The notes under the pieces were generated by a model. It made no database searches. It had not been told where the DNA came from and worked only from the letters and a program-made list of their open reading frames with translations. Position numbers and translations under genes: made by a program. A DNA stretch of 64,000 bases from an uncultured Planctomycetaceae bacterium. Lineage in GTDB: Bacteria > Planctomycetota > Phycisphaerae > UBA1845 > UTPLA1. The first letter of the stretch is position 1; every line of letters begins with the position of its first letter. The stretch covers positions 3,558-67,557 of the forward strand of contig CAZRFP010000001.1 in the NCBI GenBank assembly GCA_964599535.1, in the 5' to 3' direction. Positions 32,101 through 59,068 of this stretch are shown one piece after another.

Positions 32101-34274
32101 CAATTCGGATGGAACGCAAGGCCGAGCAGTCCGCGCTCGCCGCTTGAGCTGACGATCGAACTCAGGTTCAAATACGGCGTGGCCTCGACCGTGTAAGACG
32201 GCAGATTCACGATCTTGATGCGGCCGGTCTGTTCGACGACGAACAGGCGCGACGTATCGCCCGGCGCGGCATAGACCCCGACCGGCACGCTGAGTCCGGT
32301 GATGACTTCTGAAAATGCAAGATTGCAGGGCTCAAACGACTGGCACTCGTCGGGAACGCCGTCATTGTTGCAGTCCTGACTGGTGCCGTTGGCAATGTCG
32401 TCCGAGTCTTCCACGCCGTTGGGCTGGCAGTCCTGTGGACCGATGGCCGGTCCGACCGTCGCGGCCGTGACGCTTGCGGGCGATCCGGTTCGGAAGAGCG
32501 TGAGCGTCGCGTTGGACGATGTTGGTGCCTGATCGCAGTCGAAGCGGAAGTTGTAGAGCGTTCCCCAGAGCAGGGCGTTCGAGTTTGCACCGATGTCGGT
32601 CATGGTCCAGCTTACGACGCCGCCGGCCGCGCTGCCGGTCCAGTCAGTGCCGTCGCGTGTGACGGCGCCCTCGCCGTCGTTGTCGTAGTAGTTCACATCG
32701 CGGAAGCCGATGTTGGAAACCGTCGCCGCCGGATCGACCGGAATGCTGAAGACCTTTACGCCGCGATGCGAATTCAAGTTCTGCACGGCGTATTCATAAT
32801 GGAAGAGTCCGCCGCCGATGTTGGTGGCTTTGGCGGAAACGATGATGAGTCCGTCGTTGGGCACCTGTACGTCGGTTTCGGTGACGCTGGGATCCTGATG
32901 TTTCCAGGCGCGGATGGCGCAATCGGAGCGCATCGTGGTTCCGGCGAGCGAGAAGGTGCGATTACCGCCGGCGCTACCGCCGACCGTGATCTGGCGATAG
33001 GAGGCGTTGTTGTTGTCGTTTCCTGCTTCGGCGTCGTCCTTGGCGATGTACTGCGACTCGACGAAGTACAGGGCGCCGGGTTCATTCAGATCGGCCTCGC
33101 GAATGCGCAGGCGTCGACCGGTGTTGGACGAGTAGCCGCCGGGATTGCTGATGGGATGGATGTGAACGCCGGTGGAGGGATTGACCTGCCACTTCGGCCC
33201 GGCGCCCGACTGTCCGCCGTTTCGCGTTGCGGCATAGGGATCGGCGCAGCCGACGCCCAGCGCGCTGCCGCCACTGCCGCTCTGACAGGTGCAGCAGAGA
33301 TTATTCTGGAGAGCGAAAAAGCCGTGCTTCAGCCATGACTGGCCGAGTTGCTCAAAGCGCGTGGCGCCGTCCGATGCGGTGTAGTAACGATAGAAGTTCT
33401 GGCCGATGACCGGGTGCAGACCAATGCCTCCCGAGTCGCCGGAAATCCACTGGAGCGTTTGCGTGCCGATGTTGCAGGAGTAGGTGCCGACTGAAAAGGC
33501 GTCATATAAAACGCCACCCACTGATTCCGATGCGTAATTCGCTATCTCGTGCATTTCACCGACGATCACGTCCGGGCCGGTGTTGCCCTGGCACGACCAG
33601 TCGCGCGGTGCGCCGTCGCCGTCGTCTTGGCCGGTCGAGGGGATCAGAACGTCGCCCATTTCGACCAGTGCGTCGCCGCCGGTCCAAGTGGCCGGCGCGA
33701 CGACTTCGAGCGCGCCGATGGACAATCCGGCGAGCTTGGGGCTTCCCATGGCGTCGGCCAGTTCTTCGCTGATCGCAAGGTGCGCCGCTTCGAGAAGGAA
33801 GCGGCTCGACGCATGATCCATGCCGATCTTTGCATCGGCCACATGCAGCATCGGGCCTTTGAGTGCGCTGCTGCCGCTGTAGATGTCGAACGATACGCCG
33901 TCTTCCGTGTCGATCGGCACGATCTTGAAACCACGCAGCACGATCGTCGCCTCGCCGTGGCGAATGATGATGTCGTCGCCATGGCGCAGATCGCCGATCG
34001 GTCGGCTGGTGAGCATTCCGCCGACTTCGGTAAGGCTCATCGACGCGCCGTCGTTGACGTGAAGCGCGACGACGTTCTGATCGAAGGCGGGATCGACGCG
34101 GAGCAGGTCCGCGTCGCCCTGCTGGATTTCGATGCCATACTGGTCGAGCGTCGGTCGATCGAGCAGCAGGCGCGTTTCACCACCGACAACAGCCCAGACC
34201 GAATCGGCCCGGGCCAAGCTGGGACACAAACAACAACAAAGTGCGAGCGCAGCGAGTGTGTACCTCTGGATCAT
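29121..34274 (-). CDS. giant secreted mosaic protein. Domains: PQQ-type (soluble glucose/sorbosone dehydrogenase-like) beta-propeller, Cys-rich repeat, proprotein-convertase P-domain, CXXCH module, TSP3-like repeats, dockerin-like C-terminus
   Basis: The start MIQRYTLAALALCCCLCPSLARA (signal peptide) has GGAGAAGG upstream. Propeller motifs are GLLGLAFHPNW, NHNGGCIQFGPDGKLYVGMGDGG, GLRNPWRFSFD and GLNYGW. The P-domain is THTWVGDL..GTWNLRV.D. The haem motif CFGCH lies at 29823-29837. DSDQDGTPDCEDDCPNDP is TSP3-like. GDMDGSGDVDGADL and GDFNDNGVMDVGDV are dockerin-like. Confidence 0.9.
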   Translation of the reverse strand: MIQRYTLAALALCCCLCPSLARADSVWAVVGGETRLLLDRPTLDQYGIEIQQGDADLLRVDPAFDQNVVALHVNDGASMSLTEVGGMLTSRPIGDLRHGDDIIIRHGEATIVLRGFKIVPIDTEDGVSFDIYSGSSALKGPMLHVADAKIGMDHASSRFLLEAAHLAISEELADAMGSPKLAGLSIGALEVVAPATWTGGDALVEMGDVLIPSTGQDDGDGAPRDWSCQGNTGPDVIVGEMHEIANYASESVGGVLYDAFSVGTYSCNIGTQTLQWISGDSGGIGLHPVIGQNFYRYYTASDGATRFEQLGQSWLKHGFFALQNNLCCTCQSGSGGSALGVGCADPYAATRNGGQSGAGPKWQVNPSTGVHIHPISNPGGYSSNTGRRLRIREADLNEPGALYFVESQYIAKDDAEAGNDNNNASYRQITVGGSAGGNRTFSLAGTTMRSDCAIRAWKHQDPSVTETDVQVPNDGLIIVSAKATNIGGGLFHYEYAVQNLNSHRGVKVFSIPVDPAATVSNIGFRDVNYYDNDGEGAVTRDGTDWTGSAAGGVVSWTMTDIGANSNALLWGTLYNFRFDCDQAPTSSNATLTLFRTGSPASVTAATVGPAIGPQDCQPNGVEDSDDIANGTSQDCNNDGVPDECQSFEPCNLAFSEVITGLSVPVGVYAAPGDTSRLFVVEQTGRIKIVNLPSYTVEATPYLNLSSIVSSSGERGLLGLAFHPNWQNNAYFYVNYTNTSGNTVVARYQATGGNPASNTANAGSATILKTITQDFANHNGGCIQFGPDGKLYVGMGDGGNANDPFGRAQSNASLLGKMLRLDVDNPPTYVPADNPGSPHLPEVWAKGLRNPWRFSFDRLTGDLWIADVGQDAREEINFTAAGSPGGLNYGWRCMEGTLCTGLSGCTCNVGLVLPIREESHGDGQGTGSITGGHVYRGCEMPWLSGSYFYADYLGNYIKRFRYNGSVTDLQTEQAAGGAIQGIVSFGEDAAGEMYVVSILGSIYKIVCAAPPSLCGNGELDPGEQCDDGNDIPGDGCFNCMIETNDNCDDAFPITDGLHPFSTIGATTDGEPHAQCVTAGDGGQTFNDIWYDYLSPCNGTLTVTTCDQLGGSASYDTDLVLYTWDGESCTSRIFVACNDDDPNNACGASGGGFKSTIITPVVAWQRYLIRVGGWNSGNFGTGNLLVSNSAFPCGECGNDIVEAGEQCDPPGEYCNSNCQFANGDCNNNGVDDGEDIDVGNSFDCNNNGIPDDCEPSSAVNEYNGSGAGYPAAIPDNNATGVVRTITVPTSYLVTDVNVLLNITHTWVGDLCIEIEHNGTTVAMIQRMGEAGTCHSGSPYGCAADNLVNVIIDDQGVGGTIEDRCTTNLTSPPSYTPNNPLSAFNGMNAQGTWNLRVIDRASGDTGSLVSWGLIISTQGEPIDPCDCNENGITDAIDIANGTSQDCNNNGIPDECDIAAGGGDCDGGPTGAPSDGGILISTFCFGCHGPGAFGVDCGGPGGPCPGPSLRNKSRTTISNKLLPPTNHPGGAFPGFTAQDFADLEAFLNDTGNAPARPDGILDACQDLPDCNENGVSDGCEFGAGTQNDANHNGIPDDCEGCVDDIECDDDDPCTEDVCDAGECINTPIDSDQDGTPDCEDDCPNDPEKTSPGNCGCGNPETPATGDMDGSGDVDGADLQLFVNAIMDQSVDTADLCPGDFNDNGVMDVGDVDGMVAALLAP

Positions 34275-34788
34275 TCCTACCTTCTCCCTTTTTAAGATTG
34301 CGAAAACCACTCCCTGTGCGGAGTGCGAAAACTCTGCATCGCGGCATAAGCAGCGAATCAAGCGCGGGTTGGAACTCGGTATCAGACGTCCCGTGTGGAT
34401 CGGTCGGACGGACGGGCGAGTGGAGAAAACATGTCGGAAACGTCCGCGTGGGGACGAACTCGCCCCGACTGCCTCTGGGACCTTTGCGGTACCGAGGTTC
34501 GGAAGGACCTACTCCTACCTACCCCTTATTGATATCTACTATTACCGGATCAGCAGGGGTGAATCAAGCAAACGCATCGGTGAAAAGTCCGTGAATCTTC
34601 GGCATGATGCTTGAGGGGCGAAAAAACGTGGACCTGCGCAAAAATTCCCATCACCCGACTTTCAGTAGATCGCGTGTTAACGCTACCAGGCTCGATGCCG
34701 GATTCCGGATTCACGCGCCGTTACGCACGATGTGCGCCTGCGTGTTCGCGCTACAATTGGCTCGCATATTTAGGAATCGGACGGCGCC

Positions 34789-40253: not shown

Positions 40254-42002
40254 TCAGGAAGGTTCGGCTGCGACATCGGCGATGACCGGTGGCGGTGAGT
40301 CAGCCTCTGACGACACACTGAGATGCAGTCGCGCGCCCAGTTCGCGCTGGAACAGGGCTTCGTGTCGTCGGGTGGTGTACAGCTCAAGCTCGACATCATG
40401 CTCTGTCAGCACGTCGATGAAAACGTCGTCTCCCTCGATTCGGCATCGGACATCGCGAACGACTGAATAATGCGTGCGGTCGAGAGCGTTTGCGATGCGC
40501 AGCAGCACGGACAGCTTTCGCACCGGTCGACGCAACGACGGATGCAGATGGCGGAAGCTGTAGTGTGATTTCTTGGGGCGTTCCTTGCGATGGTAGCGGG
40601 CGATGTTGGCGATGATCTCGATTTCCTGCTCATCGAAGCCCTTGAGTTCGCCGTTTCGGATGAGGTAGTAGCCGTGCTTATGGTGACCGCGCTGGCTGAT
40701 GAGATAGCCGACATCGTGCAGCAGTGCGGCGTGTGACAGGAGTTCCTTGAAGCGCCCGTCGACGCCGTGGAGCGGCTGCAAGTCGTCGAAGATTCGCATG
40801 GCGAGCCGGGCGACTTGTTCGGCGTGTTCGCGTCGGTAGTCGCATCGCTCGGCAAGCTGGATGACGCTGCGAAGGCGCGGATTGGGCCATGCGGCGCGGG
40901 CGCGGAGCTTGCGCCGGTGGCTGCTGATGTAGTCGATGATGACACCTTCGCGGAGGGCGAAATCGCAGTACTCTATTTCCTCGATGCCGAGGGTTTTCAT
41001 GACCATGTGGAGCAGGGTGCATGCCGGGATGCTGGCATCGACGCGGCGGGCATCCATTCCCGGCACGCGCAGCCGCTCGGCGCGGCTCATGGAAGACATG
41101 CGGGCCAGAACCTGCTTGATGCCGTCGTGGCTTGTCCTGGGATTGGGCGCTTCGTCGTCTTCGAGCGTGCCGTGCAGGTGCGAGCAGATGAGGCTCAGGC
41201 TTTTGATCGCGCCGCTGGTGCCGATGCAGTGCGGCGTCGCGGGCAGCGCGCGGGCGAAGTTGTAGAGCGGCGACAGCTCGCGCTGGATCTGCCGGCGCAT
41301 CTGTTTGATCTCGTGGCCGGTCGGCGGATCAGACTTGATGAAGAGTTCGGCCAGCCGCGAACCGCCGAGCTTGACGCTGTGTATGAAAGAGGCGCGGCGC
41401 GAATTTCCGATGATGAATTCGACGCTGCCGCCGCCGATGTCGATGATTAGATTGTCCGCCAGCCCCAGCGACATGGCGTGGCGCACGCCGAGGTAGATCA
41501 AGCGGCCTTCTTCTTCGCAGGTGATGACGCGCAAGTCGAGTCCGGTTTCTCGCCAGACTCGGTCGACGAACTCACCGCCGTTTTGTGCCTCTCGAACGGC
41601 ACTGGTCGCGACGGCTTTGATCTTGGTGACGCCCTTGAGTTCGGCCATCTTGACGAAGCGTTTGAGCGCGCCGATGCCGGCGTCCATGGCCTCGGGCGTG
41701 AGCAGGTGTTCGGTGAATCCGCCTCGGCCGAGCTGCACCATGTCCTTGTCGGCGCCGAGGACTTTGAAGTCGCCGCGCGGCGAGATTTCGGCCATGACGA
41801 GGTGAATGCTGTTGGTGCCGACATCGATCGCGCCGAACTTCATCGGCGCGGGCGATGCGGAACGGCGGCGGTCGATCGAATCGACCGTCGCGTAAAGGGC
41901 GTCGTCCGCGGCGTCGAACGCGACACGCGTGAATCCATCGGGGCGGCCGCGGTCTTCGGTCAGGTCGGTCGCCAGAGGCGCTTCGTCTGCGGATTCAGTC
42001 AT
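40254..42002 (-). CDS. ppx: Ppx/GppA-family phosphatase with a C-terminal HD domain (exopolyphosphatase / pppGpp phosphohydrolase type)
   Basis: AIDVGTNSIHLV and DIGGGSVE are the ASKHA-fold motifs. LLHDVGY..HHKH is the HD domain. The alternative start is ATG 41843 (MKFGAIDVG). Confidence 0.85.
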   Translation of the reverse strand: MTESADEAPLATDLTEDRGRPDGFTRVAFDAADDALYATVDSIDRRRSASPAPMKFGAIDVGTNSIHLVMAEISPRGDFKVLGADKDMVQLGRGGFTEHLLTPEAMDAGIGALKRFVKMAELKGVTKIKAVATSAVREAQNGGEFVDRVWRETGLDLRVITCEEEGRLIYLGVRHAMSLGLADNLIIDIGGGSVEFIIGNSRRASFIHSVKLGGSRLAELFIKSDPPTGHEIKQMRRQIQRELSPLYNFARALPATPHCIGTSGAIKSLSLICSHLHGTLEDDEAPNPRTSHDGIKQVLARMSSMSRAERLRVPGMDARRVDASIPACTLLHMVMKTLGIEEIEYCDFALREGVIIDYISSHRRKLRARAAWPNPRLRSVIQLAERCDYRREHAEQVARLAMRIFDDLQPLHGVDGRFKELLSHAALLHDVGYLISQRGHHKHGYYLIRNGELKGFDEQEIEIIANIARYHRKERPKKSHYSFRHLHPSLRRPVRKLSVLLRIANALDRTHYSVVRDVRCRIEGDDVFIDVLTEHDVELELYTTRRHEALFQRELGARLHLSVSSEADSPPPVIADVAAEPS

Positions 42003-42071
42003 GTAGTCTTGATCGGTCGGAATGGCAGTCCTCTTGCGGTGGCGTTTGGGGCGGTCGTGCCTGGCGCGATG

Positions 42072-43013
42072 TCAGACGCGCTCAACGGCGAGCCGCGGGT
42101 TCGCGACGGCGGCGCGAGGGGCGGCCGACCCGTCTGATTGTACCCGACCGAGGACCTGCGACTCAATCGCGGCGCGCAAACGAGGCCAGCCGATCAGAAT
42201 CTCGCTCAGTTCGTCGTTCATTCGGCGGGCGCGCCGGGCGGCGTAGTCGAGAATTTTGGCGGACCATTCGGGGCCGGCGGCCAGCATTTGCTCGTCTCGA
42301 GCGAGTTGCGTGAGCAGTCGGGCGGCACAGAAATGATCGTTCCATGCGCCGAGGCGATCCTGCATGGCGGCGAATTGTCTGAGCAGATCGTCTCGATTTT
42401 CGCCATCGAGTCGCGTCATCAGCTCGGTTGTATAGCGCAGCGCCTTGAGGCGAATGCGCGTCTTATGGATACCCGGTCCGTGATCGCGCGACGGCGGACG
42501 ATCGAGAAGTGTCTCGGCCTTCTGGCGCCAGAATTCCCGGGCGGATGCCAAAAGATTCTTGTTGCGTCGGCGCGTTTGAATTCGGTCAATGGACTGGCAG
42601 AGTTCGGCGACTTCACGCCGGACGGCGTTCGGGCTTAATCGACGGATGGTCTTTCGCGCGGCGACGAGGTCGTCTTCGCGATGGATGACGAGCATGCCTT
42701 GCAGTTTGGCGATGTCGTCGGCGCCGCTCAGCCCGTCGTGCTTTGAATCGGCCAGGGCGATGAGCAGCACGTCGGCATCGCGGACATCGCGGAGCGAGTT
42801 GCGCACGGCGCGGAGCTTCTTCTGATGTTTGGCGCAGCGCTTCGCGCCCATCGAGCGGCCGATCAATTCGAGAGGCTCTGTCAGGCGGCGCGATGCGACG
42901 CGTAATTCGTGAACGGCCTCGATGTCGCGCGTGGCTGCCACGCGCGTTAGCGCGGACTCCAAGCGATCAAGGTGCTTTGAGACAAACTTTACCAGCCCGT
43001 CAGTGGGTGACAT
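42072..43013 (-). CDS. CHAD domain protein
   Basis: Repeated His/Arg-rich helices are VHELRVASRRL, LRDVRDADV and HKTRIRLKALRY. Lies immediately upstream of ppx. Confidence 0.8.
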   Translation of the reverse strand: MSPTDGLVKFVSKHLDRLESALTRVAATRDIEAVHELRVASRRLTEPLELIGRSMGAKRCAKHQKKLRAVRNSLRDVRDADVLLIALADSKHDGLSGADDIAKLQGMLVIHREDDLVAARKTIRRLSPNAVRREVAELCQSIDRIQTRRRNKNLLASAREFWRQKAETLLDRPPSRDHGPGIHKTRIRLKALRYTTELMTRLDGENRDDLLRQFAAMQDRLGAWNDHFCAARLLTQLARDEQMLAAGPEWSAKILDYAARRARRMNDELSEILIGWPRLRAAIESQVLGRVQSDGSAAPRAAVANPRLAVERV

Positions 43014-43450: not shown

Positions 43451-44929
43451 TTACAAATTTCGAATCTTCTCGACGATTCCCGATGTGCTCAGGCCTTCGA
43501 CCATCGGCGCGAGGACGACGCGACCGCCGCGCGATTCGACGAATTCCTGCCCCGCGATCGGCTTACCTTCCCAGTCGCGGCCTTTGACGAGTACATCCGG
43601 CGAGACGGCCTCGATCAGTCGCTGCGGTGTGTCTTCATCGAACAAGACGATGTAGTCCACATCGGACATGGCGGCGAGAACGGCCGCGCGCTCGGACTGC
43701 CCGACGATGGGACGGCCTGCGCCTTTGTTGAGGCGTCTGATCGAAGCGTCGGAGTTGAGGCCGACCACGACGACGTCGCCGCATTCCTTGCACAGCGCAA
43801 AGGTCGCGGCGTGGCCCGCATGGATGAGATCGAAGCAGCCGTTGGTGAAGACCATCTTCTGTCCGCGGGCGCGTCGGCGCGAGAGTTCGGGAACGATCTG
43901 CTCGACGGTTCGGAGTTTGCCGAGGCTTTTGTGGTGCTCGAGCATGATCTCGCCGAGGACTTCGTCGCGTGTGATGGGCACGCAGCCGAACTTCTCTACC
44001 TCCAGCCCGCCGGCGATGTTGGCCAGCGCGGCGGCCTCGCGCAAGTCTCCGCCTGCGGCCATCGCGACGGCCATCGCGGCGAGCACTTCGTCGCCCGCGC
44101 CTGTGACGTCGTATACGTCGCGCCGCTTGGTGGGGACGTGCTCAAACGCGCCGTCGGGACCGATGATCGCCATGCCGTCGGCATCGAGTGTGACGCAGGC
44201 AAACCGCGTGCGGCAGGCATCGAGGATGGTGCGTGACGCCGTCTCGACCGCGTCCATGCCGCGCAGGCGCAGGCCGGTGAGGCGCTCGGTTTCGGCGCGA
44301 TTGGGCGTAACGGCGAAGGCGCCCGCGTAGCGGCCGTAGTTTTCGATGTTCGCCGGATCGACGAGCACCGGCGCGCCTCGGCGCTCGGCCAGTTTGATCA
44401 CCTCGCGGCAGAGTGCCTCGGTGACGACACCCTTGTTGTAGTCTTCGATGCAGACGACGGAGCAGCGCGCGAGGCGCCGCTCGATCTGCTCGAGAAGGCG
44501 GCGCGTCGTCGTCTCGCTGATCGGCTCGGTCGATTCGTCGTCGATGCGGATGAGCTGCTGTCGATGTTTGTGCTGCGCCAGGCCGATGAGGCGCGTCTTG
44601 CGCGTCGTGCGGCGGCCGGGGATTTTGACCAGCCCGCTCGCGTCCGCGCCGGCGGATTGCAGCATGTCCGTCAGGCGGTCGCCGTCGGACTGATCTCCGA
44701 TCATGCCGACGCAGTGGGCGACGGCGCCCAGCGCCGCGACATCGGCCGCGACCGATCCCGCGCCGCCGAGCGCGTCTTCCTCGCTGACGACGCGCAGCAC
44801 GGGCACGGGGGCCTCCGGGCTGATGCGCTCGGCGTCGCCGTAGAGGTAGTGGTCGATCATGAAGTCGCCCACGACGAGAATGTGGGCGTCCTTGGGCTTT
44901 TCGAGCAATTCACACAGCCGCTGCCACAT
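43451..44929 (-). CDS. hldE: bifunctional D-beta-D-heptose 7-phosphate kinase / D-beta-D-heptose 1-phosphate adenylyltransferase
   Basis: N-terminal ribokinase-like segments are VVGDFMIDHY and DVTGAGDE. The C-terminal cytidylyltransferase segment is FTNGCFDLIHAGH. The ATG at 44929 has GGAG 8 nt upstream; the longer ORF reaches 44980. Confidence 0.9.
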   Translation of the reverse strand: MWQRLCELLEKPKDAHILVVGDFMIDHYLYGDAERISPEAPVPVLRVVSEEDALGGAGSVAADVAALGAVAHCVGMIGDQSDGDRLTDMLQSAGADASGLVKIPGRRTTRKTRLIGLAQHKHRQQLIRIDDESTEPISETTTRRLLEQIERRLARCSVVCIEDYNKGVVTEALCREVIKLAERRGAPVLVDPANIENYGRYAGAFAVTPNRAETERLTGLRLRGMDAVETASRTILDACRTRFACVTLDADGMAIIGPDGAFEHVPTKRRDVYDVTGAGDEVLAAMAVAMAAGGDLREAAALANIAGGLEVEKFGCVPITRDEVLGEIMLEHHKSLGKLRTVEQIVPELSRRRARGQKMVFTNGCFDLIHAGHAATFALCKECGDVVVVGLNSDASIRRLNKGAGRPIVGQSERAAVLAAMSDVDYIVLFDEDTPQRLIEAVSPDVLVKGRDWEGKPIAGQEFVESRGGRVVLAPMVEGLSTSGIVEKIRNL

Positions 44930-45515
44930 GGGCGAGACTCCGGACGCGGCGAAACCATGCCGCACACAAAACGCGGGCACGATGCGCTGATACGACGGCT
45001 ATTCTATTGTTGACGCGGCGGGTTGCCATGACCGATTGCCTGCGCTCCGGCTCGAAACCTCATCGCGATGGCAGAAGGGTATCGCATCGGCGCAAAACAG
45101 GGTTTCGCGGTCCGGGTGCAAGGCAGTGCTTTGCGTTCCCGTTTTTCATCTGTATCGTGGCAATCGGCTCCACGCCCCGGGTCCCAACTTTCGAGTCTCA
45201 AGCCCTATGCCGCCAGCCTCTCGCTTGCAGCCCTAACATTATTGCCAATGGTGTTTTACAAGCGACCGTATGCGTTTCGGCTGCGAACGGGCCTCTTGAC
45301 CGCAGGGTGGAATCCGCGTTTTCAGCCTTTCGGCGGTCGCTGCGACCCCTCTATCAGCACTATGGCGCAAGATTTGTCCAATAAAAACTCAAGTCGGCAA
45401 CTTTCGCCCGCCGAATTCTCATTATCGGATGTTCCGCGAGGGTTGCGCCGAAAAGGCCGGCCTGAATTTTCAAAATATGCAAGCGGCCATCGTGCCGTGT
45501 GAGGGTTTCCGCGCT

Positions 45516-46886
45516 ATGAGAATCATCGCCATCGCCAATCAGAAGGGCGGATGCGGCAAAACGACGGTTTCGATCAATCTGGCGGCGTGTCTTGCCCGAG
45601 AGGGTCAGCGCACGCTCGTCGTTGATCTCGATCCGCAGGGTCACTGCGCGCTGGGTCTGGCCGTGCCGGAGGAGCAGATTGAAGTGAGCGTCGCGTCGAT
45701 TCTGGCGCACGATCCGGGCGAGAATCATGTCGATCTCAGCCGGGTGATCTGGCAGATATCCACGAACTTCGATCTGATCCCCTCGAAGATTGACCTTTCG
45801 GCGCTCGAGCGATCGCTGGCGAATGTGGACGGCCGCGAGCGTCGCTTGCAGCAAGCGCTGCGTTCGATTCACGGGCGTTACGACTTTGTGATTATTGATA
45901 CGCCGCCGACGATCGGCTATCTGACCGAGAGCGCGTTGTATGCGGCCGATGAGGTCATCGTGCCGGTCGATACGGGCTATTTTTCGCTGCATGGTCTGTC
46001 GAAGCAGTTGGAGACGATCCGGCGGCTTCGGTCGACGTGGGATCGCCAGATGACGCTTCGCATTCTGGCGAATCATTACGACGTTCGCACGAAGCTGGCC
46101 CGCGAGATTCTGGCAGAGCTTCGCAAGCGGCACGGCGATGCCATGTTTGCGACATTCATCAACTTCAACACGAAGCTGAAGGAAAGCTCCAGTCTCGGCC
46201 AGCCCATTACGGAATACGATCCCGCGAGCAGCGGCTGCCGCGACTTTGTTCGGTTCGCGCGCGAGTTGATTGCGCTGCGGCCGAGCGCCGCGCCGACGGA
46301 AGTGGTGAATTCGGCGGTCGCCATTCAGTCCGCGCCGACGCTTCAGGTGGCTGAGCCACAGCGTCCGGCGACGCCGGTCGCGCGCAGCGCAACGGAGCTG
46401 AGCCTGCTGGCGCGCGCCGACGCGTTGGCGGCGGATGCGAGCAAGCTGCTGGCGACATCTCAGACGCTGATCGGCTCCGGCCGCGGCGCGTCGAGCGGAG
46501 AAGCCTGGTCCGCGAACGAGAATCGCAGCACTCTGATTCAGCGGGATGCGGCGCTATCACACGTCGAGACGGCGCGGAAGATCGAACGCATCTACGGACC
46601 TCAGCCGGTCGAAGACGGCATCGTCTTCATCACGCGCGCGGCTGGCGCGCATCGCGTTCAGATCGCGGGCGACTTCAACGATTGGAACCCGGCCCGCTCG
46701 CCGATGATGCGCATCGACGAGGATACGTTTCAGATCCGACTTCCGCTTCGTCCGGGTCGCTACGGCTATCGCTTTGTCATCGACGGGCAATGGCGGAACG
46801 ATCCCGCGAACCATCGCACCGAGCTGAATCCTTTCGGCGAGTTGAACAACATTGTCGAGTACAGCGGCATGTCGGCCGCCATCTGA
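45516..46886 (+). CDS. ParA/MinD-type P-loop ATPase fused to a C-terminal CBM48 / AMPK-beta-like glycogen-binding module
   Basis: The deviant Walker A is IANQKGGCGKTT, followed by VVDLDPQG and IIDTPP. An Ala/Ser/Pro linker comes next. The C-terminal module reads HRVQIAGDFNDWNP...GRYGYRFVIDGQWRNDP. Confidence 0.85.
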   Translation: MRIIAIANQKGGCGKTTVSINLAACLAREGQRTLVVDLDPQGHCALGLAVPEEQIEVSVASILAHDPGENHVDLSRVIWQISTNFDLIPSKIDLSALERSLANVDGRERRLQQALRSIHGRYDFVIIDTPPTIGYLTESALYAADEVIVPVDTGYFSLHGLSKQLETIRRLRSTWDRQMTLRILANHYDVRTKLAREILAELRKRHGDAMFATFINFNTKLKESSSLGQPITEYDPASSGCRDFVRFARELIALRPSAAPTEVVNSAVAIQSAPTLQVAEPQRPATPVARSATELSLLARADALAADASKLLATSQTLIGSGRGASSGEAWSANENRSTLIQRDAALSHVETARKIERIYGPQPVEDGIVFITRAAGAHRVQIAGDFNDWNPARSPMMRIDEDTFQIRLPLRPGRYGYRFVIDGQWRNDPANHRTELNPFGELNNIVEYSGMSAAI

Positions 46887-56288: not shown

Positions 56289-59068
56289 GCGCTGTGCCGC
56301 GAGACATTCCCGCACCATCGAAATCGCCGCCCGGCGTTGACGCGGCCTACGCCGCCGAGCGCGCCAAATGGGTTGATCGGCAGACCAAGGACACGCTCGA
56401 TTGGGGCCATCAGCAGGCCGAGTCGCTCTGGGAAAAGCTCTACGCGCCGTATGATCCGATCGTTGACGGTCGATGCGTGCTGGACCTTGGCTGCTCTTGG
56501 GGCTATCTGCTGAAGTATCTTGCGGAGCGGTTCAATCCGTCGCAGTTGACCGGTGTCGACATCAAGCCCTGGTGGGAGACGACGGATCATGGCTGGGATT
56601 ACTCGAAGCTTGGCGATCGGCTTCAGTTTCACGCGGGCGATCTGGCCGACATCTGGGCGATTCCGCCGGAATCGCTCGATTTGATCTTGTGCACATCGGT
56701 GCTTCAGTACATGAAGCCGGAGCAGATCGAGGCGAATCTCTGCCGGGCTTATGATCTGCTGCGCCCCGGCGGCGAGATGCTGCTACGCACGCGCGTGTAC
56801 ACATCGTATATCGGGGCGGATCTGCATCGCGACATCGAGCTGCCTTACGCGCATCTGCTCTATCCGGAGCGCGAACTGGCCGAGTTTGTGCGCGCGAAAA
56901 ACGGCAAGGAGCCGCCCTATCTCAACTGGCTTACGGCGTCGACTTATCTGGCGATCTTCGTTCGCAGCGGCTTTGAAATACTCGATTGCCGTCGTCGGAT
57001 GAATAAGCACGCGCCGGCCGTGATGGAGCGCGTTGCAAAGGCCTATCCATGGATTTCACCCGAGGAGCTTTTTTGCGCGGAGATCGAGGCGCGGCTCGTT
57101 CGGCCGCTGGAGCCGGAGGATATTCGTCGATTCGGCCGAATGGTCTCGACGCGCGTCAAGGGCGCGGCCGTCGTCAATCCACACGCGGGATACGACGTGC
57201 CGCGCGCGGAGGCGCGGCTCGATGCGGCGCTGGGCGCTGGTGGGCGGCCGTTCATGATTCCGATGCGCCGTCCGGCACGGGCGCTGGAGGACGCGACGGC
57301 GATCGTTGAACGCGACGAATTCGTGATTCAGGCACATCCGGCGGTGAAGCTGAATCGGCCGGTGACGTGGCTGGAGGATCCGCTGTCCGACCGCAACTGG
57401 CGATTCTGGTTTCAGTCCGGCGCGCCGATCAGCACGCTGTTGCAGGCCTATCAGTCGTCGGGCGATGCTCGCTACTTGTCTCGCGCGGCCGAGCTGGTCG
57501 ATGCGTGGATCTGCACATCGCTCGACAAACGGGAAGGTGTCGATATGACGTGGCACGATCACGCGACGGCGATGCGTGCGATGACACTGCTTTACTTCTG
57601 GGAAGTTTGGCGGGAAAGCGACGCCGGCACCACCGATGGAACGCGCCCGTTAGCGGCGCGCGTGCTGGCGACGCTGATCGCGCATGCGCGGGTGCTGGCG
57701 AACGAGACGTTTTACATGCCGCAGCACAATCACGGTTTGGATCAGGCCCGTGCGCTGTTGGCGCTGGCATTGAACTTGCGCGAGACGGAAGAAGCCGCCG
57801 ACTGGGAAGCTCTTTCGCGCCGGCGCGTGGAGGAGCAGATTCGCGATACGATTTCGGCGGACGGCGTTCACTTCGAACACACGCCGGACTATCAGGGCCA
57901 TGTCTACCGAATGCTGGCCGAGCTGGATGCGTTTCTTTCGCGCTATGGGCAGCCCTGGCCGCTCCTGTGCGAGACGATGGATCGGATGATGACGTTCCTC
58001 GCGCACTGCCTGAAGCCGAATGGCGACTGGCCGAACATCGGCGACACAACGCCGGGCGGTCCGGCGAATGTCGTATTGTCGATGGATGATCGGCTGGAAG
58101 ACCATCCGGAGTTTCAGTTTGCATTGACGGGCGGTCGCGCGGGTTCGCCTCCGGTGGCGCGCGATCTGGTGCTTCCCGACAGCGGCTACGCGATCTTTCG
58201 CGAGAGCTGGGACGCTCGACTTGTGGATCGCGCGGTACAGATCATCTTCTGCGCCGCATACAACACGCGCACGCACAAGCATCAGGACGACCTGTCATTT
58301 GTCGTTCACGGCTTTGGGCGCGAACTGCTGGTCGATGCCGGCAAGTATAAATATGAATACGAGCACCCCATGCGGCAATTCTGCGAAAGCGCGTGGGGCC
58401 ACAACGTGGTCACGCACGACGGCGCGCCGGCTTCGTGGGACACCGATTACATCGGGCGCAGTGGCATTGTGGCGTCGTGGCAGTGCGGCGACACATCGGC
58501 CGTGGAAGGCGAGCATCATCTCTACGAGGGCGCGGTTGTTCGTCGGCTGCTGGTGTGGCGGCGGCCGGATGTCATTCTGGTCGTGGATTGGGCGGGCGGT
58601 CGAAAGGCGGCATGGCGACAGGTGTTCAATGTCGCGCCGGAGTTTGATGTGTGCGTCGATGGGCGGCTGGCGACAGCCGCGGCGCGCGACGGCGGCCCGG
58701 TCGTGCGCGTGTTTTCGATTGCGCCGGATGCGCCTTCGATTTCGCTGCATCGCGGCGAAGAATCGCCGCCGCGCGGCTGGGCGTCGTTGAAGTCAGGTGT
58801 CATCGAGCCGACATGCTCGATCGTGTCAGCCATCGAGTCGGCCGCACCGTGCTGGGTCACGCTTATCACGCTCGACGAGGGGCCGGACCGCGCCCGGAAG
58901 ATCGAAGGCTCGGCCGCCGTTTCGCATGACGGAATGACCGTTGATTTCAAACTGGACGGCGTGGCGTCGCGGATCGGTTATCGTCGTGCAGGCGGCCGAG
59001 CGATTCTGGACGTCGACGGGCAAACCGCCGAGTCTGACATTCTGCCGCTGCCGTATCATCGACGATAA
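56285..59068 (+). CDS. fusion protein: SAM-dependent methyltransferase (N-terminal) plus heparinase II/III-like domain (C-terminal)
   Basis: LDLGCSWGY and RPGGEMLLRT mark the methyltransferase. DPLSDRNWRFWFQ, WHDHATAMR, HNHGLDQA, HTPDYQG, HKHQDDLS and GHNV mark the heparinase II/III-like domain. There is an ATGA overlap with the upstream methyltransferase gene. Confidence 0.8.
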   Translation: MSAVPRDIPAPSKSPPGVDAAYAAERAKWVDRQTKDTLDWGHQQAESLWEKLYAPYDPIVDGRCVLDLGCSWGYLLKYLAERFNPSQLTGVDIKPWWETTDHGWDYSKLGDRLQFHAGDLADIWAIPPESLDLILCTSVLQYMKPEQIEANLCRAYDLLRPGGEMLLRTRVYTSYIGADLHRDIELPYAHLLYPERELAEFVRAKNGKEPPYLNWLTASTYLAIFVRSGFEILDCRRRMNKHAPAVMERVAKAYPWISPEELFCAEIEARLVRPLEPEDIRRFGRMVSTRVKGAAVVNPHAGYDVPRAEARLDAALGAGGRPFMIPMRRPARALEDATAIVERDEFVIQAHPAVKLNRPVTWLEDPLSDRNWRFWFQSGAPISTLLQAYQSSGDARYLSRAAELVDAWICTSLDKREGVDMTWHDHATAMRAMTLLYFWEVWRESDAGTTDGTRPLAARVLATLIAHARVLANETFYMPQHNHGLDQARALLALALNLRETEEAADWEALSRRRVEEQIRDTISADGVHFEHTPDYQGHVYRMLAELDAFLSRYGQPWPLLCETMDRMMTFLAHCLKPNGDWPNIGDTTPGGPANVVLSMDDRLEDHPEFQFALTGGRAGSPPVARDLVLPDSGYAIFRESWDARLVDRAVQIIFCAAYNTRTHKHQDDLSFVVHGFGRELLVDAGKYKYEYEHPMRQFCESAWGHNVVTHDGAPASWDTDYIGRSGIVASWQCGDTSAVEGEHHLYEGAVVRRLLVWRRPDVILVVDWAGGRKAAWRQVFNVAPEFDVCVDGRLATAAARDGGPVVRVFSIAPDAPSISLHRGEESPPRGWASLKSGVIEPTCSIVSAIESAAPCWVTLITLDEGPDRARKIEGSAAVSHDGMTVDFKLDGVASRIGYRRAGGRAILDVDGQTAESDILPLPYHRR

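What the first reader, a model, noticed from the sequence alone, without database searches (positions are those of the whole stretch)
45516..46886. Orphan ParA-type ATPase fused to a glycogen-binding (CBM48/AMPK-beta-like) module
The N-terminal ~260 aa is a standard ParA/Soj ATPase with the deviant Walker A KGGCGKT. After a ~110-aa Ala/Ser/Pro linker comes a module reading HRVQIAGDFNDWNP...GRYGYRFVIDGQWRNDPAN, the signature of starch- and glycogen-binding CBM48 domains. There is no parB, parS or replicon gene nearby. ParA-like ATPases are known to position non-DNA cargo such as carboxysomes and chemoreceptor arrays. A built-in carbohydrate-binding adaptor therefore suggests nucleoid-based positioning or segregation of glycogen (or another alpha-glucan) granules without a separate adaptor protein. 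To my knowledge this has not been shown experimentally.
Basis: partly seen in the sequence, partly recalled or inferred. Interest (0 to 1): 0.65.

Follow-up and report, generated by a model that had tools for sequence, protein, structure and literature searches.

The report
ParA ATPase fused to glycogen-binding module
This gene fuses a ParA-type "positioning" ATPase to a glycogen-binding domain; the fusion is conserved in hundreds of uncultured bacteria across several phyla and has not been studied, and it may be a machine that anchors or distributes glycogen stores inside the cell.

Summary
Window 45516-46886 (+) encodes a 456-aa protein with three parts:
- a Soj/ParA-type ATPase (residues 1-255, Walker A KGGCGKT);
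- a ~105-aa linker;
- a C-terminal AMPK-beta-type CBM48 (residues 361-450).

The CBM48 passes Pfam's threshold. Its model superposes on the AMPK beta glycogen-binding domain (TM 0.88-0.90). It keeps the sugar-contact residues (W390, R419, W426, G441, N444).

The fusion is an old, widespread family rather than a one-off. It occurs in Phycisphaerae, Omnitrophota, Desulfobacterota, Pseudomonadota and Auribacterota MAGs. No parB, parS or glg gene lies nearby.

- The linker holds a strongly conserved, Phycisphaerae-specific helix.
- In about 19 non-Phycisphaerae loci the next gene starts with a ParB-like peptide (K-LGRGL-DD-IS-x-IFLS). That gene is a likely ATPase-activating partner. It is absent from the window.

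The most likely function is ATP-dependent tethering or positioning of cytoplasmic alpha-glucan (glycogen) relative to the nucleoid. This is inferred, not shown. I found no literature on it. I rate it a new variant of a known kind, interest about 0.6.

The parts
45516..46886 (+). ParA-CBM48 fusion gene (456 aa plus stop). An alternative upstream ATG at 45429 is used by automatic gene callers.
   Evidence: ORF list. The family alignment starts at MRI(I/V)A. A GAGGG sits about 11 nt upstream of 45516. The 485-aa version is on record in a metagenome assembly.
45516..46280 (+). Soj/ParA-type deviant Walker A ATPase domain (residues 1-255).
   Evidence: Pfam AAA_31 E 4.6e-53. PDB sequence hits: 8RAY ParA E 7e-48, T. 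thermophilus Soj E 1e-43, H. pylori Soj E 3e-37. Foldseek TMt 0.81-0.83 to 9A6N, 8RAY and 2BEK.
45543..45566 (+). Deviant Walker A K10-G-G-C-G-K15-T-T, with the signature lysine K10 and an unusual invariant Cys13.
   Evidence: Invariant in 86/86 family members and conserved across phyla.
46281..46595 (+). Linker (residues 256-360), mostly low-confidence or disordered and rich in Ala/Ser/Pro/Thr.
   Evidence: Composition. AF2 pLDDT is below 50 for residues 260-287 and 314-344. Length ranges from about 10 aa to over 250 aa among relatives.
46401..46475 (+). Conserved linker helix SLLARADALAADASKLLATSQTLIG (residues 296-320), specific to Phycisphaerae.
   Evidence: A301, A308, L311, L312 and L318 are invariant in 86/86. 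AF2 models a helix at 292-314 with pLDDT about 75-85. The motif is absent from Omnitrophota and Desulfobacterota members.
46596..46865 (+). AMPK-beta-type CBM48 (glycogen/starch-binding) module, residues 361-450.
   Evidence: Pfam PF16561 and PF02922 above gathering. PDB phmmer best hit is the AMPK beta1 CBM 1Z0N, E 1.3e-9. AF2 pLDDT 93-97. Foldseek 4YEF_D TMt 0.90 at rmsd 1.2 A and 1Z0M_C TMt 0.88. W390, R419, W426 and G441 are invariant in 86/86; N444 is in 81/86.
44981..45515 (.). 535-bp divergent intergenic region between hldE (43451-44980, minus strand) and the fusion gene.
   Evidence: ORF list and Pfam. No Rfam family matches. Only weak consensus promoter and terminator matches.

Best explanation
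The gene encodes a ParA/MinD-family positioning ATPase whose C-terminus carries its own binding module for cytoplasmic alpha-glucan (glycogen).

Proposed mechanism:
1. ATP binding sandwiches two ATPase domains into a dimer through the signature lysine K10.
2. The dimer binds non-specific nucleoid DNA, through R191 and K220, which are the equivalents of the two Soj DNA-binding arginines.
3. The dimer also presents two CBM48 modules, which gives bivalent avidity for glycogen particles.
4. Glycogen granules or condensates are therefore tethered to the nucleoid and spread over it only while ParA is in the ATP state.
5. ATP hydrolysis releases them. The cycle keeps glycogen from coalescing at the poles and shares it between daughter cells.

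In other phyla hydrolysis is probably triggered by the protein encoded immediately downstream, whose N-terminus looks like the ParA-activating peptide of ParB. In Phycisphaerae, including this window, the activator is unknown, and a lineage-specific conserved linker helix may take part in dimerisation or regulation.

Shown here: the domain identities, the fold, conservation of the catalytic, DNA-contact and sugar-contact residues, the wide phyletic spread, orphan status, and the partner gene in other lineages.

Inferred: binding to glycogen and to DNA, and all of the cell biology.

Whether glycogen is the cargo (with the nucleoid as track) or the surface on which the ATPase cycles (as the membrane is for MinD) cannot be decided from sequence.
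For: - Both domains are confirmed by profile, by PDB sequence search and by fold.
- The AMPK beta1 residues whose mutation abolishes or weakens glycogen binding are W100, K126, W133 and G147 (PMC6274970). They align to W390, R419, W426 and G441, each invariant in 86/86. N150 aligns to N444 (81/86). The same positions hold in Omnitrophota, Desulfobacterota and other phyla.
- The nearest relatives of this CBM48 subtype sit in tandem arrays fused to GH13 alpha-amylase and GH57 catalytic domains, that is, alpha-glucan enzymes.
- No signal peptide is apparent and the protein carries a cytoplasmic ATPase domain, so the ligand should be cytoplasmic.
- The ATPase motifs are intact and invariant: KGGCGKT, DLDPQG and FVIIDTPP.
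- The Arg of the Soj D-x-R-T motif is kept as R191, and K220 sits at the second Soj arginine position. B. subtilis Soj R189 and Caulobacter ParA R195 are DNA-binding residues (PMC10711552).
- The fusion is kept under strong conservation. At least 120 protein clusters at 90% identity show it. About 70 of the best 80 genome loci carry it, spread over at least 5 phyla.
- It is not part of a parAB operon in any locus examined.
- About 19 loci have a downstream gene that starts with K-LGRGL-[DE][DE]-[IV]-S-x-[IVF]-F-L-S. This is the arrangement expected of a ParA plus activator pair.
- Biological rationale: in E. coli, which I assume (not checked) has no such protein, glycogen forms condensates that pile up at the old pole and skew nucleoid position and division (PMC12706056; PMC4836754).
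Against: - No experiment exists, and I found no paper on this fusion.
- No glycogen-metabolism gene is linked to the fusion gene in the window or among the immediate neighbours in 62 loci.
- Whether the host genomes make glycogen could not be checked.
- Some CBM48 modules bind other glycans. The feruloyl-esterase CBM48s (6RZN, 8BF3 with xylobiose) are also structural neighbours.
- K126 is replaced by Arg and L146 by Phe or Tyr.
- In this window and in all Phycisphaerae loci no activator was found, so a complete ratchet cannot be described.
- A few members of the same ParA clade lack CBM48 yet keep the partner. The core system therefore does not depend on the CBM.
- Envelope-polysaccharide genes recur near the gene in several clades. 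This leaves room for a BcsQ-like role.
Confidence: 0.45

Rival explanations
1. Glycogen sensor or regulator. The CBM48 does not move glycogen. Instead it reports on glycogen, as the AMPK beta CBM does. Binding to glycogen sequesters or inhibits a Soj-like ATPase. Energy-reserve status is thereby coupled to a nucleoid-associated process such as chromosome organisation, replication control or division-site choice.
For: The closest solved homologue of the module is the AMPK beta CBM, which acts as a glycogen sensor that inhibits the kinase. The ATPase is very close to chromosomal Soj (37-41% identity). From my own knowledge, Soj proteins have regulatory roles beyond segregation. No cargo-side adaptor was found in Phycisphaerae.
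Against: No regulatory target is linked to the gene. The family has its own dedicated partner gene in other phyla. That is typical of positioning systems rather than of sensors.
Confidence: 0.15
2. Scaffold for a glycan-making or glycan-degrading machine (BcsQ-like). The ATPase localises or assembles enzymes that synthesise, remodel or export a polysaccharide. The CBM48 holds the nascent or substrate glucan.
For: There is a full-length but sub-threshold match to BcsQ (Pfam CBP_BcsQ E 1.4e-16; NCBIfam TIGR03371 100.9 bits), and BcsQ structures appear among the fold hits (TMt 0.67-0.72). Glycan genes lie close by in several clades. In the window these are hldE upstream and a 2045-aa heparinase/GT-like protein, PMT_2 and methyltransferases downstream. 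L015-L018 have a GT-like protein upstream. Omnitrophota have an Alginate_exp-like porin in the operon.
Against: The BcsQ model score is below its cut-off (157.85), and Soj is a much better match. The neighbouring glycan genes are not orthologous between clades: the window GT-like protein against the L018 protein gives BLASTP E 0.01 over 32 aa. hldE synteny is limited to 7-8 closely related loci and is divergent. A promoter-like site separates the gene from the downstream cluster. No bcs genes are present.
Confidence: 0.15
3. The CBM48-like module is used as a protein-protein interaction domain, so the cargo is a protein complex and not a carbohydrate.
For: From my own knowledge, E-set/CBM48 domains can mediate protein contacts; the AMPK beta CBM packs on the kinase domain in the many AMPK complex structures among the hits. 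CBM48-less clade members work with the same partner.
Against: The positions that are invariant across phyla are exactly the sugar-stacking tryptophans and the polar sugar-contact residues. Their strict retention is hard to explain without carbohydrate binding.
Confidence: 0.1
4. It is simply the organism's chromosome-partition ParA, carrying an accessory domain, and it works with a ParB/parS encoded elsewhere.
For: The highest similarity is to chromosomal Soj/ParA. The rest of the genome is not visible.
Against: parB was not a recurrent immediate neighbour (seen in no more than one) of the 62 fusion loci (only the 25 most frequent of 78 families are listed). None was seen among the hits listed for the window's 64 kb, and the window has no parS. 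Related loci instead carry a dedicated non-ParB partner.
Confidence: 0.05

Closest known systems
Chromosomal Soj/ParA (T. thermophilus Soj 1WCV/2BEK, H. pylori Soj 6IUB, ParA 8RAY)
   Same: Same fold and size of the ATPase domain (TMt 0.79-0.83, 32-41% identity). It shares the deviant Walker A with signature lysine, and basic residues at the two Soj DNA-binding arginine positions.
   Different: No parB or parS partner is present. A C-terminal extension of about 200 aa ends in a CBM48. Walker A carries an invariant Cys (KGGCGKT). In other phyla the partner is a non-ParB protein.
McdA/McdB carboxysome positioning, and other orphan ParA systems for non-DNA cargo (PpfA/TlpT, ParC/ParP, PomXYZ)
   Same: The concept is the same: a ParA-type ATPase that positions a non-DNA cytoplasmic cargo, with a partner that carries an N-terminal activating peptide. 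McdA structures are among the hits (6NON E 1e-11).
   Different: In those systems the cargo is bound by the partner and not by the ATPase. Here the cargo-binding module is built into the ATPase itself, and the presumed cargo is a polysaccharide rather than a protein assembly.
MinD
   Same: A ParA/MinD ATPase with a surface-binding element appended to its C-terminus. ATP-driven dimerisation doubles the valency for that surface, and a partner triggers release.
   Different: MinD uses a short amphipathic helix that binds membrane. Here a folded 90-aa carbohydrate-binding domain sits at the equivalent position. MinD profiles score far below threshold. No minC or minE is present.
AMPK beta-subunit glycogen-binding domain, and plant PTST proteins (coiled coil plus C-terminal CBM48)
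   Same: Same CBM48 subtype (TMt up to 0.90, about 30% identity) with the same sugar-contact residues. As in PTST proteins (my knowledge), a helical segment precedes a C-terminal CBM48 that targets a partner activity to an alpha-glucan granule.
   Different: It is attached to a P-loop ATPase rather than to a kinase scaffold or a coiled-coil adaptor. It is bacterial. K126 is Arg and L146 is Phe or Tyr.
PhaM of Ralstonia eutropha (PHB granule-nucleoid tether; from my knowledge)
   Same: The proposed outcome is the same: storage granules attached to the nucleoid so that they are shared at division.
   Different: PhaM is not an ATPase and binds the granule through PHB synthase. There is no sequence relationship.
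BcsQ (cellulose secretion ParA/MinD ATPase)
   Same: ParA/MinD fold. There is a full-length but weak profile match, and both are associated with polysaccharide biology.
   Different: The score is below the family threshold. There are no bcs genes and no BcsR-like partner. BcsQ has no CBM.

Membership tests
ParA/MinD (deviant Walker A, SIMIBI) ATPases | Deviant Walker A KGGxGK[ST] with the N-terminal signature lysine | tested here: met
   K10-G-G-C-G-K15-T-T is invariant in 86/86. Pfam AAA_31 E 4.6e-53 and CbiA E 3.7e-21.
ParA/MinD (deviant Walker A, SIMIBI) ATPases | Walker A' and Walker B motifs, and the ParA fold | tested here: met
   D37-x-D39-P-Q and D123...D128-T-P-P are invariant. Foldseek TMt 0.81-0.83 to Soj/ParA structures.
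ParA/MinD (deviant Walker A, SIMIBI) ATPases | ATP-dependent dimerisation and partner-stimulated ATPase activity | not testable with these tools
   This needs biochemistry. Only a monomer could be modelled.
ParA/MinD (deviant Walker A, SIMIBI) ATPases | A cognate partner protein with an N-terminal activating peptide | tested here: inconclusive
   Found immediately downstream in about 19 related non-Phycisphaerae loci. Not found in the window (best HMM hit E 9.4) or in Phycisphaerae loci. The rest of the genome is unseen.
Chromosomal ParABS (Soj-Spo0J) | parA adjacent to parB, with parS sites nearby | tested here: not met
   No ParBc appears among the listed Pfam hits for the window or for the immediate neighbours of 62 loci. 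There are 0 parS-like sites with up to 3 mismatches in 64 kb.
Chromosomal ParABS (Soj-Spo0J) | Basic residues for non-specific DNA binding (B. subtilis Soj R189 and R218) | tested here: met
   R191 sits in YDVRTKL and K220 in NFNTKLKES, both invariant in 86/86. R191 aligns with the Arg of 'YDGRT' in T. thermophilus Soj and 'FDSRA' in 8RAY. The role of R189/R195 is taken from PMC10711552. The mapping of R218 rests on my own knowledge of the B. subtilis sequence.
CBM48 / AMPK1_CBM (glycogen- and starch-binding module) | Profile match above the curated threshold | tested here: met
   PF16561 scores 52.7 bits against 26.8. PF02922 scores 33.0 bits against 22.4.
CBM48 / AMPK1_CBM (glycogen- and starch-binding module) | Beta-sandwich fold superposable on solved CBM48 domains | tested here: met
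   The C-terminal model has pLDDT 88.7. Foldseek gives 4YEF_D TMt 0.90 at rmsd 1.2 A, 1Z0M_C TMt 0.88, and also GlgB N-domains.
CBM48 / AMPK1_CBM (glycogen- and starch-binding module) | Carbohydrate-contact residues (AMPK beta1 W100, K126, W133, G147, N150) | tested here: met
   These map to W390, R419 (a conservative K to R change), W426, G441 and N444. The first four are invariant in 86/86 and N444 is in 81/86. The residue roles are from PMC6274970.
CBM48 / AMPK1_CBM (glycogen- and starch-binding module) | Actual binding of alpha-1,4/1,6-glucan | not testable with these tools
   This needs a pull-down or ITC. Indirect support: the nearest relatives are fused to GH13 and GH57 domains.
BcsQ (cellulose biosynthesis ATPase) | Score above the NCBIfam TIGR03371 cut-off, and a bcs operon context | tested here: not met
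   100.9 bits against a cut-off of 157.85. No bcs genes are nearby.
MinD | A C-terminal amphipathic membrane-targeting helix, with minC/minE partners | tested here: not met
   The C-terminus is a CBM48. The conserved linker helix has a low hydrophobic moment of 0.25. minD_bact scores 47 bits against 212.9.
McdA (carboxysome positioning) | A carboxysome or McdB context, and McdA-type sequence | tested here: not met
   Only a distant match is seen (6NON E 1.2e-11, N-terminal half only). No carboxysome genes are in the window.

The most novel reading that the evidence does not exclude
This family is a dedicated, ATP-driven partition or positioning system for glycogen. It would be the first such machinery for a carbohydrate storage polymer, and the first ParA/MinD ATPase that binds its non-DNA cargo, or uses it as its working surface, through a built-in carbohydrate-binding module. 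In most phyla it works with a new type of partner that carries a ParB-like LGRGL activating peptide.
Probability: 0.35. Interest if true: 0.8.

Novelty: new variant of a known kind. Interest (0 to 1): 0.62.

Why it matters
ParA/MinD ATPases are the general bacterial solution for placing large objects such as chromosomes, plasmids, carboxysomes, chemoreceptor arrays and division sites. In every studied case the cargo is recognised by a separate adaptor protein.

Here the ATPase itself would recognise a polysaccharide. That would extend the principle to a new class of cargo and a new architecture.

It also bears on a current question. Recent work shows that glycogen forms condensates in E. coli. 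These collect at the old pole, displace the nucleoid and make division asymmetric (PMC12706056; PMC4836754). A conserved protein that could link glycogen to the nucleoid in an ATP-dependent way suggests that some bacteria actively control where glycogen sits and how it is inherited. It also gives a concrete gene to test this with.

The newly noticed LGRGL-peptide partner family offers a second handle for biochemistry.

Tried and rejected
1. Linker helix as a fused, in-cis copy of the partner's activating peptide. The hhalign comparison of 14 partner N-termini with 86 linker helices gave probability 0.5%. Rejected for lack of support.
2. A conserved glycosyltransferase neighbour. The Glyco_trans_1_2 protein upstream in L015-L018 and the window's 2045-aa downstream protein are not orthologous (BLASTP E 0.01 over 32 aa). 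Rejected.
3. Sizing the fusion family with an exhaustive search using the C-terminal 163 aa. The ranking was dominated by proteins with 3-17 tandem CBM48 copies, so it could not count the fusions. It did show which other proteins carry this CBM48 subtype.
4. A conserved gene neighbourhood across all 62 fusion loci (all-against-all clustering; Pfam on 117 immediate neighbours). No universal neighbour exists. Only clade-specific ones appear: hldE in 7-8 Phycisphaerae loci, an operon in Omnitrophota, and the LGRGL partner elsewhere.
5. An RNA element in the 535-bp upstream region or elsewhere. No Rfam match anywhere in the window.
6. parS. No match with up to 3 mismatches.
7. A search for the partner peptide anywhere in the window or in Phycisphaerae loci, by regex and by HMM over all six-frame ORFs. 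Nothing found.
8. Literature. Six searches combining ParA, CBM48, glycogen, cargo and positioning found nothing on this fusion. The original Soj DNA-binding paper (PMC2154430) is not held.
9. Whether AF2 docks the linker helix on the ATPase. No coordinates or PAE were available to me.
Full report
OBSERVATION

An open reading frame runs from 45429 to 46886 on the + strand. Alignment with 17 and then 85 relatives shows that the family begins at MR(I/T)(I/V)A. The start is therefore the ATG at 45516, with a GAGGG about 11 nt upstream, and the product is 456 aa. Automatic gene calling in a public metagenome assembly used the upstream ATG and recorded a 485-aa product. The same record shows that the window comes from an uncultured organism.

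Pfam places a ParA-type P-loop domain on residues 1-250: AAA_31 E 4.6e-53, CbiA E 3.7e-21. It places an AMPK1_CBM/CBM_48 module on residues 360-448. PF16561 scores 52.7 bits against a gathering cut-off of 26.8, and PF02922 scores 33.0 against 22.4.

THE TWO DOMAINS

The ATPase is closest to chromosomal Soj/ParA proteins. By sequence: 8RAY ParA E 7e-48, T. thermophilus Soj E 1e-43, H. pylori Soj E 3e-37. By predicted fold: TM-score 0.79-0.83 normalised to the target, at 32-41% identity. BcsQ, MinD, McdA, ParF and FlhG are clearly more distant.

The catalytic motifs are invariant in 86 family members: the deviant Walker A K10-GGCG-K15-TT, D37-x-D39-PQ, and D123...D128-TPP. The Cys in Walker A is a hallmark of the whole clade.

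R191, in YDVRTKL, aligns with the arginine of the Soj D-x-R-T motif. In B. subtilis Soj (R189) and Caulobacter ParA (R195) this arginine is needed for non-specific DNA binding (PMC10711552). K220, in NFNTKLKES, sits where B. subtilis Soj has its second DNA-binding arginine, R218. That second mapping rests on my own knowledge of the sequence. Both residues are invariant.

The C-terminal module was modelled twice. pLDDT is 93-97 within the full-length model and 88.7 on average for residues 346-456 alone. The stand-alone model superposes on the glycogen-binding domain of AMPK beta1 and beta2. Examples are 4YEF_D (TMt 0.90, rmsd 1.2 A) and 1Z0M_C (TMt 0.88). It also matches the N-domains of branching enzymes.

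Mutation of AMPK beta1 W100 or K126 abolishes glycogen binding, and mutation of W133 or G147 weakens it (PMC6274970). In the HMMER alignment these four residues and N150 correspond to W390, R419, W426, G441 and N444. I checked the register with the known S108 and T134 positions of beta1. The first four are invariant in 86/86 and N444 is kept in 81/86. The same pattern, GDFN-W ... Y-[RK]-F-DG-W-D-N ... G-N, holds in members from other phyla.

The nearest relatives of this CBM48 subtype in a library of 1.84 billion proteins are tandem arrays of 3-17 copies. Several of these are fused to GH13 alpha-amylase or GH57 catalytic domains. This points to alpha-glucan as the ligand.

THE LINKER

Residues 256-360 are 47% Ala/Ser/Pro/Thr and mostly low-confidence in the model. 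They do contain a well-conserved helix, SLLARADALAADASKLLATSQTLIG (residues 296-320). A301, A308, L311, L312 and L318 are invariant in 86/86, and a 4-3-4-3 spacing of Ala and Leu suggests a packing or coiled-coil seam. Its hydrophobic moment is low (0.25), so it does not look like a membrane-targeting helix.

The helix is restricted to Phycisphaerae. In Desulfobacterota the CBM48 follows the ATPase after only about 10 residues, and in some Phycisphaerae the linker exceeds 250 residues. A second short helix (KIERIYG, residues 349-359) directly precedes the CBM48.

DISTRIBUTION

A search of about 5.8 billion proteins returned at least 120 clusters at 90% identity with the same two-domain architecture, at 51-95% identity. 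Where a name was given, it was 'AAA family ATPase' or 'chromosome partitioning protein' from Phycisphaerae or Planctomycetota MAGs.

I then scanned one genome per GTDB species with two family-specific peptides, [IV]ANQKGGC and F[IV]NFNTKL. Among the best 80 loci, about 70 carry the C-terminal CBM48, three are cut by contig ends, and six or seven lack it. The best 80 are ranked by score, so they are enriched for fusions. The fraction should not be extrapolated to all 550.

The 80 loci come from these groups:
- Phycisphaerae and other Planctomycetota;
- Omnitrophota;
- Desulfobacterales and 'delta proteobacteria';
- Pseudomonadota and Gammaproteobacteria MAGs;
- Candidatus Auribacter;
- unclassified bacteria.

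The fusion is therefore old, widespread and under purifying selection.

CONTEXT

In the window the gene stands alone. Upstream and divergent lies hldE (43451-44980). Beyond it are a CHAD protein and Ppx/GppA. Downstream, after a 270-bp gap that contains a promoter-like site, lies a run of very large envelope-glycan genes.

A Pfam survey of 27 further large ORFs of the window listed no ParB, no second ParA and no glycogen enzyme among its 25 strongest families, all with E at or below 1.5e-15. No parS-like site and no Rfam element were found.

Across 62 fusion loci no neighbour family is universal. Pfam on 117 immediate neighbours gave HldE-type domains in 7-8 cases, all close Phycisphaerae relatives. 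It gave nothing resembling ParB or glycogen enzymes in two or more. The gene is therefore a true orphan ParA with respect to parB.

A PARTNER IN OTHER LINEAGES

While reading the neighbours I noticed something in Desulfobacterota, Pseudomonadota, Auribacterota and some unclassified lineages. The gene immediately downstream begins with a peptide such as MAKKSLGRGLDDISDIFLS, KKLGRGLEDISHLFLSS or KRLGRGLADVSHVFLSG.

A regex found 14 such loci, and an HMM built from them found about five more. In every case the gene lies directly after the ParA gene. There was no hit in any Phycisphaerae locus, and the best hit in the whole window had E = 9.4.

The peptide resembles the conserved N-terminus of ParB proteins (GLGRGLDALL), which contacts ParA and stimulates its ATPase; this is from my own knowledge. 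The rest of these partner proteins is diverse. Some are degenerate ParA/MinD-like P-loop proteins (L079: CbiA E 7e-8). Others match no family.

Members of the same ParA clade that lack CBM48 (L062, L069, L070) keep the partner. Omnitrophota have a different conserved operon. It includes a protein of about 158 aa with a short N-terminal motif, a very basic stretch and a small beta-barrel.

So the ancestral unit looks like an ATPase plus an activator, with the CBM48 added to the ATPase. I tested whether the Phycisphaerae linker helix could be an in-cis copy of the activator peptide. Profile comparison gives no support.

INTERPRETATION

The best-supported reading is a ParA/MinD-type positioning ATPase that binds cytoplasmic alpha-glucan through its own C-terminal module.

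ATP-driven dimerisation would create a DNA-binding surface and, at the same time, a bivalent glycogen-binding unit. Glycogen particles would then be held on the nucleoid in the ATP state and released on hydrolysis. This could spread glycogen along the cell and share it between daughters.

The layout also recalls MinD, where the surface-binding element sits at the C-terminus and gains avidity on dimerisation. Sequence alone cannot say whether glycogen is the cargo or the working surface.

All of this is inference. What is shown is the identity and integrity of the parts, their conservation, the absence of parB, parS and glg linkage, and the partner gene in other lineages.

The rival readings are given with their weights in the rival explanations:
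- a glycogen sensor that regulates a Soj-like function;
- a BcsQ-like organiser of a glycan-making machine;
- a CBM48 used for protein contacts;
- a plain chromosomal ParA.

Envelope-glycan genes recur near the gene, although they are not orthologous between clades. This is the main reason I keep the BcsQ-like rival alive.

NOVELTY

Six full-text searches found no paper on a ParA-CBM48 fusion or on ParA-type positioning of glycogen. The proteins are in public databases only under generic names.

Recent work shows that glycogen forms condensates in E. coli that accumulate at the old pole and cause asymmetric nucleoid position and division (PMC12706056; see also PMC4836754). The question of whether bacteria control glycogen placement is therefore timely.

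I classify the finding as a new variant of a known kind. It is a ParA/MinD positioning ATPase, but with a built-in carbohydrate-binding module and, in most phyla, a new type of partner.

VERDICT

- Observation: confirmed.
- Confidence in the glycogen-tethering or positioning mechanism: about 0.45.
- Interest: 0.62.

Noticed in passing
L052, L055, L056, L058, L059, L062, L067-L070, L072-L074, L077-L079, L082, L083: the gene starting within about 0-250 bp downstream of the ParA(-CBM48) gene (e.g. L055:11082-11645, L079:11089-11949): The downstream genes begin with a ParB-N-terminus-like peptide, K-LGRGL-[DE][DE]-[IV]-S-x-[IVF]-F-L-S. The rest of each protein is diverse: some are degenerate ParA/MinD-like P-loop proteins and some match no family. 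They are a candidate new family of ParA partners. None is present in the window or in Phycisphaerae loci.
   Followed up: partly
L048-L080 (Omnitrophota loci), about 4 kb around the fusion gene: A conserved operon. It holds an Alginate_exp-like porin (~476 aa), a 193-aa membrane protein, the ParA-CBM48 gene, a 108-aa membrane protein, and a ~158-aa protein. The last one has an N-terminal 'F-K-I-V-D-L-L-K-E-V-F-W-I-K' motif, a K/R/P-rich stretch and an EF-Tu-domain-2-like barrel.
   Followed up: partly
window 40254-43013 (-): A Ppx/GppA phosphatase (582 aa) and a CHAD-domain protein (313 aa) lie side by side, two genes upstream of the fusion gene. From my knowledge this pair is typically associated with polyphosphate granules. 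So genes for another storage polymer lie close by.
   Followed up: no
window 47157-59068 (+): A cluster of unusually large envelope-glycan genes. It comprises a 2045-aa protein with heparinase II/III N and C domains, a long coiled coil and a Glyco_trans_1_2 domain; a 708-aa PMT_2 protein; a 264-aa methyltransferase; and a 927-aa methyltransferase-heparinase II/III fusion.
   Followed up: partly
P0121-P0269 (hits of the C-terminal module in the representative library): The nearest relatives of this CBM48 are proteins made of 3-17 tandem AMPK1_CBM copies. A common class of about 480 aa has four copies. Some are fused to GH13 alpha-amylase (P0132, P0147) or GH57 (P0133).
   Followed up: partly
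window 45552-45554 (Cys13 of the Walker A): The Walker A reads KGGCGKT, with a cysteine that is invariant in 86/86 family members and across phyla. Most ParA/MinD proteins have Val, Ala or Ile at this position. It could be a clade marker or a redox-sensitive site.
   Followed up: no
window 45429 vs 45516: Public gene calls use the upstream ATG (485 aa). The family alignment and a GAGGG motif support ATG 45516 (456 aa). The 29-aa extension is not conserved.
   Followed up: yes
L062, L069, L070, L071, L075, L084: These members of the same KGGCGKT ParA clade lack the CBM48. They end in acidic or Pro/Ala-rich tails, or in nothing. Three of them still have the LGRGL partner downstream, so the ATPase-partner pair is the core and the CBM48 is an add-on.
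   Followed up: partly
window 29121-34361 (-): A 1746-aa ORF lies here. It was included in a pooled Pfam scan, but the hits could not be assigned to it individually.
   Followed up: no
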